The position numbers and the translations under genes are program-made. 64,000 bases of DNA, taken from a virus (taxonomy: Duplodnaviria > Caudoviricetes). Under the pieces are notes generated by a model, which was not told the origin of the DNA, did not search any database, and saw only the letters and a list, made by a program, of their open reading frames with translations. Below, in pieces: positions 8,896 through 12,674 of the stretch. The stretch is from the IMG/VR virus record IMGVR_UViG_3300037067_012889, positions 192,001 to 256,000 of that record. One strand, given 5' to 3'. Numbering within the stretch: position 1 is the stretch's first letter; the number at the start of each line of letters is the position of its first letter.

Positions 8896-8972
8896 AGGTG
8901 ACTCTGGCGAGGGCTAACACGGTACGTATTGCCCGCAGCTATTCTCGCCTTCGAGACGTACAGGACGCCTCT
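8896..8972 (-). ncRNA. putative tracrRNA copy 1
   Basis: 77-nt element identical in 4 copies; two predicted stems; split complementarity to the repeat 3' end. Confidence 0.8.
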
Positions 8973-8985
8973 AAATTGATTCAGT

Positions 8986-9342
8986 CTATTTCGACTGGTC
9001 CTCTTCAATCAGGTTCTCACGGATTTTCACGGCTTCGGCAGTGATATTCCGCAGCAGCATGTCCGCAATCGGGTCCGTAGTCCTGGTACACGCCAGGTGG
9101 CTTGTAATTTCATCCATGAAAATTACCATCGTCATTGCTTCCGGGGTGACGAGACAGTTCCCACCAATTTCCAATTCAAAATTATCGAGATGTGCATGAC
9201 TTGCGGCGTCCAGGTGAACACCACCACGGCAACCATCTGATGCTTTGCCACGCTTATGCAGATAATAGTTACGCATTAGTAAATCTCCGGGCGTCAATAT
9301 AGTACAATTATCCCGCTTTTTTCTTGAACTTACGTGCGCCAA
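8986..9342 (-). CDS. hypothetical protein directly downstream of the Cas12f-like genes (true start probably MRNYYLH, ~9276)
   Basis: ORF fills the gap between the Cas-like gene and the tracr copy; GGAG precedes the internal ATG. Confidence 0.6.
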   Translation of the reverse strand: MAHVSSRKKRDNCTILTPGDLLMRNYYLHKRGKASDGCRGGVHLDAASHAHLDNFELEIGGNCLVTPEAMTMVIFMDEITSHLACTRTTDPIADMLLRNITAEAVKIRENLIEEDQSK

Positions 9343-10513
9343 TCACGTGGATTATGACGTCGATATCGGCTTTATTGCAAGCCTTCTGAATCAACGAACC
9401 CATCTGCTGCCAATCCCAATGAGTCGATTCAATATTGCATCCCTGGACACGACCGACCTTCTCCATATGTCGATTGTTACATAGATCGCCAACTGGTTGA
9501 AATACCACAAGCCGACCCGCACCAGCCATACTCAAACGCCTGACCATCTCTTCGGCGAGCCTGTGATTCCATGTTTTGACGAAATCACGCCATCGACGCG
9601 TCAACTTCTCACGACGAGTAATTGCGATGTTCCGCTTTTTCTTAGATCCTTTATAAAGACGTTGGATTGTCAAGGATCGGCGGGTGTGCTTGATGTCGTT
9701 ACCAAATCGCAATCTGGTGCTTGTCCTACCATTGATGCGGAACAGGATTGGGCGTGAAAATCCACCAGACAAGAAAGCCGTCTTGTTCTTGTCGATGGGC
9801 AATTTCACCTTTGGAATGGAATGACAGATCTTGGCATACCATTTACCATCGCGTTCGAATAAATCGACACCCTTGATACTCCATTCGCCGTCCGCAATCC
9901 TCCAAAACATGTTGCGAATAGAATGGAGCTTGTATGACTTAGTCTTGATCTTGAAGATCATGACGGTGTCATCGTCGAATCGCACTTGCAACTTCCAATC
10001 ATCATCGTCAGTTGCCGGAACGACGATATGACAATCGCTAGTGCAGAACGGGATTTTGCCGCGCTTAGCAGATTGCGGCAATTCGCCAAGACCAGCCAGA
10101 GCGATCATCCAGCGAGGATAGGCTGACTTGATGCCGGACTTCTTAATGAGATCCTTCATCGCTTTTTTGACAGCCAGCTGAATCTGCTTCATACCAAACT
10201 CAGCATGTGTCTCGGCGATAATGGCCCGCAGCCGTTCATCCATCTCAGGGCTGCAAGGATCAACAGAACATCGAATGCGGGGACTAACACGCTTATCAGG
10301 ATGATACAACCATTTCTTGTCGTTCTCCATCCATTCTCGAACGATAAGATGATTACCAGCTTCGTAGTGTAGCCGCAACCAAGCCGCTGCAAAATCATTA
10401 GTAACCTGCTGGATTTTGTCGGCGATGGTAGAGAGACGCTTTTTCTCTACTGCGAAATCTCCATCACTTCCAACTAGATCAACCCTCTTGTTCTTGATAA
10501 CTCTGTACTGCAC
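9308..10513 (-). CDS. nuclease-dead Cas12f/TnpB-like protein B
   Basis: WED strand DGKWYAKICH, RuvC-I position DKNKTAFLSGG (no Asp), WRDFVKTWNHRLAEEMV helix, RuvC-II LVVFQP (no Glu), WDWQQMGSLIQKAC..ADIDV; ends before any Zn finger or RuvC-III; GAGGAG RBS. Confidence 0.82.
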   Translation of the reverse strand: MQYRVIKNKRVDLVGSDGDFAVEKKRLSTIADKIQQVTNDFAAAWLRLHYEAGNHLIVREWMENDKKWLYHPDKRVSPRIRCSVDPCSPEMDERLRAIIAETHAEFGMKQIQLAVKKAMKDLIKKSGIKSAYPRWMIALAGLGELPQSAKRGKIPFCTSDCHIVVPATDDDDWKLQVRFDDDTVMIFKIKTKSYKLHSIRNMFWRIADGEWSIKGVDLFERDGKWYAKICHSIPKVKLPIDKNKTAFLSGGFSRPILFRINGRTSTRLRFGNDIKHTRRSLTIQRLYKGSKKKRNIAITRREKLTRRWRDFVKTWNHRLAEEMVRRLSMAGAGRLVVFQPVGDLCNNRHMEKVGRVQGCNIESTHWDWQQMGSLIQKACNKADIDVIIHVIGARKFKKKAG

Positions 10514-10532
10514 GATTTCTCCTCAAAGGAAA

Positions 10533-10609
10533 AGGTGACTCTGGCGAGGGCTAACACGGTACGTATTGCCCGCAGCTATTCTCGCCTTCGAGACGTACAG
10601 GACGCCTCT
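10533..10609 (-). ncRNA. putative tracrRNA copy 2
   Basis: Identical 77-nt element between the two Cas-like genes. Confidence 0.8.
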
Positions 10610-10620
10610 GGATTGATTCA

Positions 10621-11925
10621 TCATGCTGCTTTCTTCTTACGCAATTTGCTCTTGCGTGATTCACCAATCTTCCTAACAGTGACCTTGATGCCGACGACCT
10701 TGCAAGCGTGCTGCAATAACAACTGCATTTGGTACCAATCCCAACCGGTCGATTCGGTGAACCCCTTCATCTTCCCGATATTAGTCAGGTATCTTGATTC
10801 TCGCCATTTGCCAGCTGGCTGATATACTACAACGTGGCCGATTTTGGATTTGACACATCGCTTAACGACGTCTGCGGCCCAACAGCTATTGGTCGTCTTG
10901 ACCATATCACGCCACGTGTCCCTGATCTTGTCGCGCCACTGGATTGGCTTCCTGCCATGTCCTTTCCTGGCACTGGAAGCATATTTGTATGATTCGTTTT
11001 TACCGAATCGTTGTTGCGTCAGCGATTTGCGCACACGTTCGATATGCCTACTGTCCATCAAACCCGTCAAAGTCCTACCATTGATTCGCATCATCATCGA
11101 ATTATGGTAGCCAGCGGTAACGAAAGCCGTCTTCGTGGCGTCCAATTGTGACTTCTCGATATTCGTAATCTTGTAACAGATATGCGCGTACCAACGGCCA
11201 TCACGAAGAACTAACGAAGAAGTGTTGAAGATGAATTCACCAGATGCAATCTTCAATAGAGCTTCACGAATGGTGGCCAAATTACGGCCACCGGTTCGCA
11301 TTTTAAAGACCATTGGACGCAGACGAGTACCGAGTCCTCTTTCAAAGCGTACTTCCAGTTTCCACGGGTCTTTAATCGTTTTCGGAACGATGATGCTGCT
11401 GTTCGAAGTGTAAAACGGAATGGGTGCAGGTTTATGTGCTTGTGGGAATTCGCCCAAGCCGGAAAGAATCGTCATCCATCTCTTATAGGCCGACTTCGAC
11501 GACGGCATTGAAGAGATCGTCTTACCAACGTTTTGCAAAATGATGCCGATTGGTTTCGTTCCAAGATTAGCATGCTCTCTTGTGAGAAGTCTGTAGAGCT
11601 GCCTACTCATCGCTGGATCGCATGAATTAACAGGGCACTTAATGCGTGGCGGTGCATCCTTTTTACCCTTATAGGCTTTCGCCCACTCTTTATCCTTCTC
11701 GATCCAATTGCGAATCACCAGATGATGCCCGGCTTGCTGATGCAAACATAGCCAGTGGTTGCAGTAGTCGTTCGCCATCTGCTGCATTTGGACGGCCAGC
11801 GACAAGAGGCGTTTTTTCTCGTCTACGAAATCACCATCACTGCCAGTCAGTTCGATCCTGATGATTTTCGTGATACCATCAGGCTTCTTCTTACGTGGCT
11901 TCTTCTCTACTTTTTCTTCGCTCAT
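10621..11925 (-). CDS. nuclease-dead Cas12f-like protein A
   Basis: PIPF, DGRWYAHICY, LDATKTAFVTAG (RuvC-I Asp lost), RKGHGRK, VVVYQP (RuvC-II Glu to Gln), WDWYQMQLLLQHAC..VGIKV; truncated before the Zn finger and RuvC-III. Confidence 0.85.
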   Translation of the reverse strand: MSEEKVEKKPRKKKPDGITKIIRIELTGSDGDFVDEKKRLLSLAVQMQQMANDYCNHWLCLHQQAGHHLVIRNWIEKDKEWAKAYKGKKDAPPRIKCPVNSCDPAMSRQLYRLLTREHANLGTKPIGIILQNVGKTISSMPSSKSAYKRWMTILSGLGEFPQAHKPAPIPFYTSNSSIIVPKTIKDPWKLEVRFERGLGTRLRPMVFKMRTGGRNLATIREALLKIASGEFIFNTSSLVLRDGRWYAHICYKITNIEKSQLDATKTAFVTAGYHNSMMMRINGRTLTGLMDSRHIERVRKSLTQQRFGKNESYKYASSARKGHGRKPIQWRDKIRDTWRDMVKTTNSCWAADVVKRCVKSKIGHVVVYQPAGKWRESRYLTNIGKMKGFTESTGWDWYQMQLLLQHACKVVGIKVTVRKIGESRKSKLRKKKAA

Positions 11926-11945
11926 TTGATCCTCTTAATGATTAG

Positions 11946-12000
11946 AGGGCCTACATGGATTCACGCCTGTAATCATTGGAAGTTAACAATTCCAAAATAA
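11946..12000 (-). ncRNA. degenerate repeat plus putative guide fused to tracr copy 3 (natural single-guide candidate)
   Basis: Minus strand: tracr, then TTGGAA-N8-TTCCAA hairpin, then TGATTACAGG (repeat ends TGACTACAGG), then CGTGAATCCATGTAGGCCCT. Confidence 0.5.
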
Positions 12001-12077
12001 AGGTGACTCTGGCGAGGGCTAACACGGTACGTATTGCCCGCAGCTATTCTCGCCTTCGAGACGTACAGGACGCCTCT
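12001..12077 (-). ncRNA. putative tracrRNA copy 3
   Basis: Identical 77-nt element. Confidence 0.8.
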
Positions 12078-12104
12078 GGATTGAGTCTAATTGTTCCATA
12101 AAAG

Positions 12105-12133
12105 GTTGTAGCATGAAGAATAGAAATCATTAA
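12105..12133 (-). promoter_or_regulatory. internal promoter for tracr3 and the dCas12f genes
   Basis: TTAATG-N17-TACAAC with TCATGC before the -10, matching the recurring phage promoter motif. Confidence 0.55.
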
Positions 12134-12562
12134 CCTAGGAACGGCACCCTCCATTCTCTTGGTTCGATGTGTGGCTCGATTGGTTCCTATAGTCACCTTG
12201 GAACAAACGGTACTCTCCATTACACCTGGGAACGAGCGGTACTCTCCATTCACACACCACTTTACCGTTGAGTGGTGTCCTGCAGTCACCTGGGAACGAG
12301 TGGTACTCTCCATTATGGGAAATCCCACTTTACGGTTTACCTGTAGTCACCTGGGAACGAGCGGTACTCTCATTGGTTTTGCGGCAAACCTCTCTTCCCT
12401 TCTCCTGTAGTCACCTGGGAACGAGTGGTACTCTCCATCGATGGATGAAGAATTCCAGCAACCTGTAGTCACCTGGGAACGAACGGTAAACCCCATTCCA
12501 AAAGCCTGTATCGAGCAAACGGTCGCTCCTGTAGTCACCTGGGAACGAACGGTAAACCCCAT
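12128..12562 (-). CRISPR. CRISPR array C: 8 repeat units (variant, truncated and degenerate), 6 spacers
   Basis: Repeats at 12186, 12223 (truncated), 12279, 12340, 12404, 12462 and 12528; degenerate copy at ~12128-12154; spacers 31, 29, 26, 30, 23 and 31 nt. Confidence 0.93.
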
Positions 12563-12597
12563 TACGCCAACGGGTATTAAAGGATATCACTAATAAA

Positions 12598-12674
12598 AGG
12601 TGACTCTGGCGAGGGCTAACACGGTACGTATTGCCCGCAGCTATTCTCGCCTTCGAGACGTACAGGACGCCTCT
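12598..12674 (-). ncRNA. putative tracrRNA copy 4
   Basis: Identical 77-nt element 35 nt upstream of array C. Confidence 0.8.

What the first reader, a model, noticed from the sequence alone, without database searches (positions are those of the whole stretch)
8896..12674. Four identical 77-nt tracrRNA-like elements with a split anti-repeat and pseudoknot
Seen at 8896, 10533, 12001 and 12598. The minus-strand RNA has hairpin GAGGCGU-[CCUGU]-ACGUCUC, then a long GGCGAG...CUCGCC stem, then AGUCACCU and a U-run. The loop CCUGU is complementary to the last 5 nt of the repeat (ACAGG), and AGUCACCU to the preceding AGGUGACU. Together they cover exactly the 13 nt at the 3' end of the repeat. This resembles the two-part repeat:anti-repeat pseudoknot of Cas12f/TnpB guides in a very small scaffold. 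Perfect four-fold identity beside diverged proteins suggests dosage selection or gene conversion. It could be useful as a compact sgRNA.
Basis: partly seen in the sequence, partly recalled or inferred. Interest (0 to 1): 0.85.

Follow-up and report, generated by a model that had tools for sequence, protein, structure and literature searches.

The report
Miniature tracrRNA of phage dead-Cas12f system
The four identical 79-base elements are copies of a very small guide-scaffold RNA (tracrRNA) that pairs in two places with the CRISPR repeat, and it serves a non-cutting miniature Cas12f-like protein pair in a jumbo phage. The design is the known Cas12f/TnpB one, in an unusually compact and multi-copy form.

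Summary

- **Copies.** Four copies are identical over 79 nt on the gene (minus) strand, and the 364-kb phage genome has no others.
- **Fold.** The RNA forms a 7-bp hairpin with loop CCUGU, then a bulged long stem (GGCGAG/CUCGCC plus an inner helix), then a free tail AGUCACCU and a U-run.
- **Homologues.** 15 distinct homologous elements come from related viral and metagenome loci. In these, 12 of 21 intramolecular pairs change on both sides while staying paired (0/500 shuffles).
- **Tail pairing.** The tail covaries with the repeat. Examples are AGUUACCU:AGGUAACU, ACUUGCCU:AGGCAAGU, GUUUCAUUUC:GAAAUGAAAC and UCGUUCUUUG:CAAAGAACGA.
- **Loop pairing.** The hairpin loop covaries with the repeat's guide-proximal 5 nt. 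The four versions are CCUGU:ACAGG, CUUGU:ACAAG, UUGCA:UGCAA and CUGCG:CGCAG. This supports the pseudoknot.
- **Strand.** Conserved G-U pairs, a consensus phage promoter and downstream terminators in distant loci all fix the strand.
- **Proteins.** The neighbouring 401- and 434-aa proteins are Cas12f-like (AsCas12f is the top match by profile and by fold). Their RuvC motifs are altered and the C-terminal part is missing.
- **Topology.** Stem 1 with a pseudoknot loop, then stem 2, then an anti-repeat tail. This is the known Cas12f/TnpB guide core without the peripheral stems.

Verdict: a new compact variant of a known kind. Expression and protein binding have not been tested. This scan found the element only in this genome.

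The parts
8894..8972 (-). tracrRNA copy 1. Hairpin 1 at 8971-8953 (loop CCUGU 8964-8960), stem-2 arms GGCGAG 8949-8944 and CUCGCC 8911-8906, anti-repeat tail AGUCACCU 8903-8896, then a U-run. It lies 13 nt after the stop of the 118-aa ORF and 34 nt before array 2.
10531..10609 (-). tracrRNA copy 2. It lies between the stop of the 434-aa gene (11 nt upstream) and the ribosome-binding site and GTG start of the 401-aa gene.
11999..12077 (-). tracrRNA copy 3. It is the only window copy with its own consensus promoter and lies upstream of the 434-aa gene.
12596..12674 (-). tracrRNA copy 4. It lies 14 nt after the stop of the 340-aa ORF and 31 nt before array 3.
12105..12134 (-). Phage consensus promoter (GTTAAT, 15 nt, TGCTACAAC), 28 nt upstream of hairpin 1 of copy 3.
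   Evidence: The motif GTTAA-N16-TGCTAYAAY occurs 51 times in the genome against 16.5 expected, mostly ahead of genes. The same motif precedes every element copy in L005, L006 and L012.
12186..12564 (-). CRISPR array 3: six full repeats of about 35 nt plus one truncated repeat. The conserved leader motif TTGGCGTA sits at the 5' side and the last repeat is degenerate.
8680..8861 (-). CRISPR array 2: three repeats, plus a degenerate fourth repeat whose 3' part lies at 8620-8638.
7372..7540 (-). CRISPR array 1: three repeats and no adjacent tracr copy. A sigma-70-like promoter (CTGACA-16-TATTAT) lies at 7587-7560.
10621..11925 (-). Cas12f-like protein B (434 aa), probably nuclease-dead.
9308..10513 (-). 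Cas12f-like protein A (401 aa), 40% identical to B. Serine stands where the RuvC-I aspartate aligns, the RuvC-II glutamate has no counterpart (Phe/Gln there), and there is no zinc finger or RuvC-III segment.

Best explanation
Each element encodes a tracrRNA of about 79 nt (longer if 5' leader is kept), made from the gene strand.

It folds into a 5' hairpin, a long bulged stem and a single-stranded 3' tail.

A crRNA cut from the arrays keeps at least the last 13 nt of the repeat in front of its spacer. Eight of these pair with the tail; this is the long repeat:anti-repeat duplex, equivalent to stem 4 of a TnpB omegaRNA. The five next to the guide pair with the hairpin loop and form an H-type pseudoknot, which probably stacks on hairpin 1.

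This guide-pseudoknot-stem core is what Cas12f and TnpB proteins hold with their WED and RuvC domains. The phage's 401- and 434-aa Cas12f-like proteins would therefore load it and bind DNA that matches the spacer. Because their RuvC site is altered and truncated, they would bind without cutting.

Shown here: the copies, the fold, covariation of all helices and of both intermolecular pairings, the strand, the promoter motif, and the Cas12f kinship of the proteins.

Inferred: transcription, processing, protein loading, coaxial stacking and DNA binding without cleavage.

In the window only copy 3 has a promoter. Copies 1, 2 and 4 sit inside longer transcription units and would have to be cut out, or they act as part of the leader.
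For: - Identity and copy number.
- Intramolecular covariation on 15 distinct homologues: 96% of cells paired, 12 of 21 pairs with changes on both sides, 0/500 shuffles, and slid controls give at most 4 (smaller set).
- Hairpin-1 stems differ completely between lineages: GAGGCGU, AACCCG, GAGCCG, UGGGUG, AAGGUG, CGGUCG and GGGCGC.
- Tail:repeat duplex is kept through compensatory changes in seven lineages, 8 to 16 bp long. L024 adds ACUCACCU against a repeat that reads ...GGGUGAG at the contig end.
- Loop:repeat-end pairing is kept in four different sequence versions.
- Strand: conserved G-U pairs, five G-U pairs in the L039 duplex, promoters, and canonical terminators right after the element in L008, L032, L033 and L039.
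- Proteins: profile against PDB gives Cas12f1 at E 1.6e-17 and AsCas12f at 8.6e-17. The AF2 model (pLDDT 83) has AsCas12f as top Foldseek hit at E 1.9e-17.
- Known design: PMC11246509, PMC10097598, bioRxiv 10.1101/2023.07.03.547593.
Against: - There are no expression data, so the RNA ends and abundance are unknown.
- Three of the four window copies have no promoter of their own.
- The minimum-energy fold of the free RNA hides the tail.
- An 8-bp duplex is short compared with described Cas12f anti-repeats.
- Within the close clade the loop and the repeat end never vary. The pseudoknot evidence therefore rests on three more distant lineages (31-35% protein identity to the L024 protein that led the search alignment). 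In two of these the pairing sits one base in from the repeat end.
- The covariation counts use an alignment fitted to the model.
- No Rfam family matches.
Confidence: 0.85

Rival explanations
1. It is a tracrRNA, but only the 3' tail pairs with the repeat. The hairpin loop and the repeat's last five bases would each be read by the protein and would not pair with each other, so there is no pseudoknot.
For: Within the close clade CCUGU and ACAGG never vary, so they give no covariation there. In L033 and L039 the complementary block sits one base in from the repeat end.
Against: Four different loop sequences each meet their exact complement within the last 6 nt of the repeat. The chance of this is roughly 0.002 per lineage. 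The same pseudoknot exists in solved TnpB and Cas12f complexes.
Confidence: 0.07
2. It is mainly a cis-acting leader, attenuator or terminator of the cas genes and arrays. It would control read-through or translation and would not be a free trans-acting RNA.
For: It lies 10-30 nt ahead of the ribosome-binding site of the cas gene in every simple locus and ends in a U-run. Three window copies have no promoter. The minimum-energy fold closes a stem against the U-run.
Against: This does not explain why the tail and loop follow the repeat sequence of arrays 1.3 kb away. The generic terminator scan finds nothing at the copies. Distant loci add a separate canonical terminator after the element. This role can coexist with the tracrRNA role.
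Confidence: 0.05
3. It is a DNA-level repeat, such as a duplication junction or recombination site, or it makes a plus-strand RNA.
For: The copies are exactly identical and flank diverged paralogues, as recombination would produce.
Against: Base-pair covariation and G-U pairs fit only a minus-strand RNA. The plus-strand fold is unremarkable (z -1.1). The element is also kept in loci with a single copy (L007, L008, L015).
Confidence: 0.02

Closest known systems
AsCas12f1 (type V-F) tracrRNA/sgRNA
   Same: The order of parts is the same: stem 1 whose loop forms the short repeat:anti-repeat duplex (R:AR-2, coaxial with stem 1), then stem 2, then a 3' anti-repeat forming R:AR-1. No RNA lies 5' of this core. 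The proteins here have AsCas12f as best match by profile and by fold.
   Different: The AsCas12f scaffold is 171 nt and needs the stem 3/4 'large coaxial helix'. Here the tracr is 79 nt with nothing between stem 2 and the tail, and R:AR-1 is only 8 bp. The effector lacks the zinc finger and RuvC-III. The locus holds several tracr copies, and the tracr sits in the cas leader.
ISDra2 TnpB omegaRNA
   Same: It has the same guide-pseudoknot-stem core. The bases just 5' of the guide pair with the loop of stem 1 and stack on it, and stem 4 corresponds to the tail:repeat duplex.
   Different: The omegaRNA is one 116-nt scaffold fused to a fixed guide and lies at the 3' end of tnpB inside a transposon. 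Here the scaffold is split into tracr and CRISPR repeat, lies 5' of the gene, and serves arrays with many spacers.
Nuclease-dead Cas12f (sigma-E-linked dCas12f, and the CRISPR-linked dCas12f cluster of PMC13472631) and TldR
   Same: These are small TnpB/Cas12f-derived proteins with C-terminal truncations that remove part of RuvC, and they are proposed or shown to bind DNA under RNA guidance. A CRISPR-array-linked dCas12f cluster is mentioned there.
   Different: The studied sigma-E dCas12f uses single guide RNAs and no tracrRNA was found. The loci here are on viral contigs and carry a split tracr/crRNA and often two paralogues. Whether they belong to the published CRISPR-linked cluster could not be checked.

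Membership tests
Type V-F (Cas12f-type) tracrRNA | Encoded beside a Cas12f-family effector gene and a CRISPR array | tested here: met
   Proteins match Cas12f by profile (E 1.6e-17) and by fold. Three arrays lie in the locus.
Type V-F (Cas12f-type) tracrRNA | A long anti-repeat pairs with the repeat | tested here: met
   An 8-16 bp duplex is kept by compensatory changes in seven lineages.
Type V-F (Cas12f-type) tracrRNA | A short 5-7 bp repeat:anti-repeat next to the guide forms a pseudoknot with a tracr stem-loop (PMC11246509) | tested here: met
   The hairpin loop and the repeat's guide-proximal 5 nt are complementary in four sequence versions. The three-dimensional pseudoknot itself is inferred.
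Type V-F (Cas12f-type) tracrRNA | Expressed as a small RNA and bound by the effector together with crRNA | not testable with these tools
   No transcriptome or pull-down data. Only promoters and terminators were inferred.
Type V-F (Cas12f-type) tracrRNA | Serves an active RuvC nuclease | tested here: not met
   Serine, glycine or alanine stands at the RuvC-I aspartate position. Glutamine or alanine stands near RuvC-II, except in the three closest relatives of protein A (P0002-P0004), which carry glutamate there. The alignment to Cas12f ends before the zinc finger and RuvC-III.
TnpB omegaRNA | A single RNA overlapping the 3' end of tnpB and the transposon end, with a fixed 3' guide | tested here: not met
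   The element lies 5' of the gene in simple loci. The guide comes from arrays.
Intrinsic terminator | A G+C-rich hairpin immediately followed by a U-run | tested here: not met
   The scan finds none at the four copies. Nine bases separate the conserved stem from the U-run.
Any Rfam family | A match to a curated covariance model | tested here: not met
   No match at E up to 1 in 6500-14500.

The most novel reading that the evidence does not exclude
The tracrRNA may also be the 5' leader of the cas12f-like mRNAs and work as a feedback switch. In the window (after copy 3) and, independently, in L033, a partial repeat 3' end follows the tracr, and the 'guide' behind it is the gene's own ribosome-binding region. 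The protein could then bind its own leader as a pseudo-single-guide RNA and block its translation. In L005 one copy is fused directly to a repeat end. This lineage may therefore show tracr/crRNA pairs re-fusing into omegaRNA-like single guides.
Probability: 0.2. Interest if true: 0.7.

Novelty: new variant of a known kind. Interest (0 to 1): 0.62.

Why it matters
The element shows how far the Cas12f/TnpB guide scaffold can shrink in nature. It needs 79 nt of tracr plus 13 nt of repeat. The scaffolds and tracrRNAs read here are 116-185 nt.

It comes with an effector of 400-434 aa that probably binds without cutting. That gives a defined minimal RNA for a very small programmable DNA-binding complex.

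It also gives a natural data set in which the pseudoknot rule can be read directly from covariation. The protein family is large, with 204 clusters at E 1e-30 or better, so the design is probably widespread.

Biologically, it points to jumbo phages using RNA-guided binding, most likely to silence genes. The targets are unknown.

Tried and rejected
- **Family libraries.** Rfam gave no match. Pfam gave nothing for the proteins. NCBIfam gave only a sub-threshold TnpB hit.
- **Single-sequence energetics.** The minimum-energy fold differs from the conserved fold, and the 13-mer duplex is not significant against shuffles. I relied on covariation instead.
- **Generic promoter and terminator scan.** Counts were no higher than in shuffles. 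I replaced it with the phage's own promoter motif.
- **Exact-protein look-ups.** They failed for P0002, P0003 and P0008, errored for P0005, and returned no DNA for P0015.
- **Chance pattern hits.** L011 and L026-L029 were chance matches.
- **Alignments too diverse.** Alignment A5 was too diverse to seed either the genome or the viral locus search, and A6 too diverse for the genome search.
- **Spacer targets.** There were no matches elsewhere in the phage genome. Two spacers had no exact hits in viral or genome contigs. Targets and the target-adjacent motif remain unknown.
- **A third anti-repeat.** I considered that the conserved 5' flank (GACUCAAUCCA) might pair with the repeat's 5' end. I dropped this because copies 1 and 2 differ there.
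- **The 340-aa and 118-aa ORFs.** They are not conserved in related loci, so they are not counted as part of the system.
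Full report
**Observation.**
The window is part of a 363,885-bp IMG/VR virus record rated complete.
- Four copies of one element are identical over 79 nt: 8894-8972, 10531-10609, 11999-12077 and 12596-12674.
- A DNA search and a covariance-model search of the whole genome find no other copy.
- All neighbouring genes run on the minus strand. On that strand the element reads A-GAGGCGU-CCUGU-ACGUCUC-GAA-GGCGAG...CUCGCC-AG-AGUCACCU-UUU.
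- Three small CRISPR arrays (7372-7540, 8680-8861, 12186-12564) carry a 35-nt repeat that ends, on the minus strand, in AGGUGACU-ACAGG.
- The tail and the hairpin loop are exact complements of these 8 + 5 nt.

The only caveat concerns the single-sequence fold. The minimum-energy fold hides the tail (-29.9 kcal/mol) and the described fold is 2 kcal/mol weaker (-27.9).

**Surroundings.**
On the minus strand the order is:
1. 340-aa ORF
2. copy 4
3. array 3
4. promoter
5. copy 3
6. 434-aa gene
7. copy 2
8. 401-aa gene
9. 118-aa ORF
10. copy 1
11. array 2
12. three further ORFs
13. array 1

The 401- and 434-aa proteins are 40% identical paralogues. Pfam finds nothing for them.
- A profile of 16 family members matches solved Cas12f structures: SpCas12f1 at E 1.6e-17, AsCas12f at 8.6e-17, and a 'nuclease-deactivated Cas12f' at 4.9e-8.
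- An AlphaFold2 model (pLDDT 83) has AsCas12f as its best Foldseek match, E 1.9e-17.
- In the alignments, serine, glycine or alanine stands at the RuvC-I aspartate position. Glutamine or alanine stands near RuvC-II in all members except P0002-P0004, which carry glutamate there.
- The proteins end before the zinc finger and RuvC-III.

They are therefore probably nuclease-dead. The family is large, with 204 clusters at E 1e-30 or better.

**Homologous loci.**
Protein-based scans of viral and metagenome contigs gave related loci. A covariance model built from seven elements finds the element in all of them, on the gene strand.
- Simple loci (L007, L015/L031, L008, L032, L033, L039) have one gene. 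Their order is element, then a short gap holding the ribosome-binding site (about 10 nt in L007 and L015/L031; about 30-80 nt with a terminator hairpin in L008, L032, L033 and L039), then the gene, then the array.
- The jumbo-phage clade (window, L005, L006, L012) has the B-then-A paralogue pair and two to four element copies.

**Fold.**
On 15 distinct sequences:
- 96.1% of cells are standard pairs;
- 12 of 21 pairs change on both sides;
- no shuffle out of 500 reaches any of the five measures;
- sliding the partners gives at most 4 such pairs.

The alignment was fitted to the model, which favours the structure. Even so, the hairpin-1 stems are entirely different words in different lineages.

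**Pairing with the repeat.**
The tail follows the repeat in every lineage:

| Locus | Tail : repeat |
|---|---|
| window | AGUCACCU:AGGUGACU |
| L006 | AGUUACCU:AGGUAACU |
| L015 | ACUUGCCU:AGGCAAGU |
| L008 | GGCACUCC:GGGGUGCC |
| L032 | GUUUCAUUUC:GAAAUGAAAC |
| L033 | UCGUUCUUUG:CAAAGAACGA |
| L039 | 16 bp including five G-U pairs |

The hairpin loop follows the guide-proximal end of the repeat:

| Loci | Loop : repeat end |
|---|---|
| window, L005-L008, L015 | CCUGU:ACAGG |
| L032 | CUUGU:ACAAG |
| L033 | UUGCA:UGCAA |
| L039 | CUGCG:CGCAG |

L024 has loop CCUAC and tail ACUCACCU. Its contig ends inside the first repeat at ...GGGUGAG. That leaves a clean prediction: the repeat should end in GUAGG.

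**Strand and transcription.**
- G-U pairs are conserved in hairpin 1 and in the inner helix. They fit only the gene strand.
- The phage has a recurrent promoter motif, GTTAA-N16-TGCTAYAAY, with 51 hits against 16.5 expected. One sits 28 nt upstream of copy 3.
- In L005, L006 and L012 the extended -10 part of this motif (TGCTAYAAY or a one-base variant) lies 16-28 nt upstream of every copy. The upstream TTAA element sits at consensus spacing in all but one copy (L005:7571).
- In L008, L032, L033 and L039 a canonical G+C-rich terminator follows the tail.
- Window copies 1, 2 and 4 begin 11-14 nt after ORF stop codons and have no promoter. They must be transcribed by read-through and then cut out, or they act within the longer RNA.
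- Array direction agrees. A conserved leader motif (TTGGCGTA) lies on the 5' side and degenerate repeats lie at the far end.

**Comparison with known systems.**
- Cas12b, Cas12f1, Cas12g and Cas12l guides combine a long repeat:anti-repeat stem with a 5-7 bp short one in a pseudoknot (PMC11246509).
- In the ISDra2 TnpB omegaRNA, the bases just 5' of the guide pair with the loop of stem 1 and stack on it. The guide-pseudoknot-stem unit is conserved across Cas12 guides (PMC10097598).
- In AsCas12f the core is stem 1, stem 2, part of stem 3 and R:AR-2. R:AR-2 is coaxial with stem 1, and the scaffold is 171 nt.

The phage element has this core and nothing else. It is smaller than the scaffolds read here: 116 nt for the omegaRNA, 156 nt for the SpCas12f1 tracr and 185 nt for the Cas12p tracr.

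A CRISPR-linked cluster of truncated dCas12f has been mentioned in print, with guide RNAs predicted by covariance (PMC13472631). I could not tell whether it is this clade. The sigma-E-linked dCas12f studied there had no tracrRNA.

**Four identical copies.**
Between genomes the element is far more conserved than the proteins. It differs by about 2 nt where protein A is 74-76% identical. Purifying selection therefore explains much of the identity. However, the apical loop varies between genomes and differs among the three L005 copies, yet it is identical in all four window copies. This suggests recent copying or gene conversion in this phage. Dosage selection is untested.

**Verdict.**
This is a real, conserved tracrRNA with a bipartite, pseudoknot-forming anti-repeat. 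It is a compact, multi-copy variant of the Cas12f/TnpB design, attached to a probably non-cutting effector on phage genomes. Expression, processing, protein loading, targets and the role of the two paralogues remain open.

Noticed in passing
window 11930-11998 (minus strand, between copy 3 and the 434-aa start); also L033:1470-1500: After the tracr comes a partial repeat 3' end (UGAUUACAGG in the window, ACGAUGCAAG in L033). The 'guide' behind it is the gene's own ribosome-binding region. This is seen in two distant lineages but not in L005, L007, L008, L032 or L039. The window guide has no second match in the phage genome.
   Followed up: partly
L005:7568-7680 (the same in L013): One tracr copy is fused directly to a repeat end (...AGUCACCU-GACUACAGG-spacer). 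This gives a 4-bp hairpin with a tetraloop, like a natural single-guide RNA. It is present in two independent contigs.
   Followed up: partly
own genome, outside the window: C1:137,404-137,483 (minus; L023) and C1:9,880-9,973 (plus; L022): At 137 kb there is an orphan mini-array with the TTGGCGTA leader, one repeat ending in ACAGU and one truncated repeat. At 9.9 kb there is a degenerate single-guide-like remnant (a weak hairpin with CCUGU...CGCCAGAGUACCUU, a loop, AAGGUGAUUACAGG). The covariance model does not find either.
   Followed up: partly
L006 (for example 9886-9970) and L005:5780-5805: Several spacers begin with ACTACAGG, a second copy of the repeat's last 8 nt.
   Followed up: no
whole genome; in the window at 12113, 13736, 14783, 19475 and 21698 (minus): The phage-wide promoter motif GTTAA-N16-TGCTATAAY has 51 hits against 16.5 expected, nearly all just upstream of genes.
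   Followed up: partly
window 15517-21687: About 15 copies of a repeat unit of roughly 60 codons spread over three adjacent minus-strand ORFs (1314, 496 and 228 aa).
   Followed up: no
window 24760-25354: Two to three copies of a segment whose sequence looks like tRNA genes (families D9, D10 and D13). This was not checked with a tRNA finder.
   Followed up: no
window 8780-8824: The first spacer of array 2 is 45 nt long and contains a direct internal repeat (GTCTGATGCGTTGG twice).
   Followed up: no
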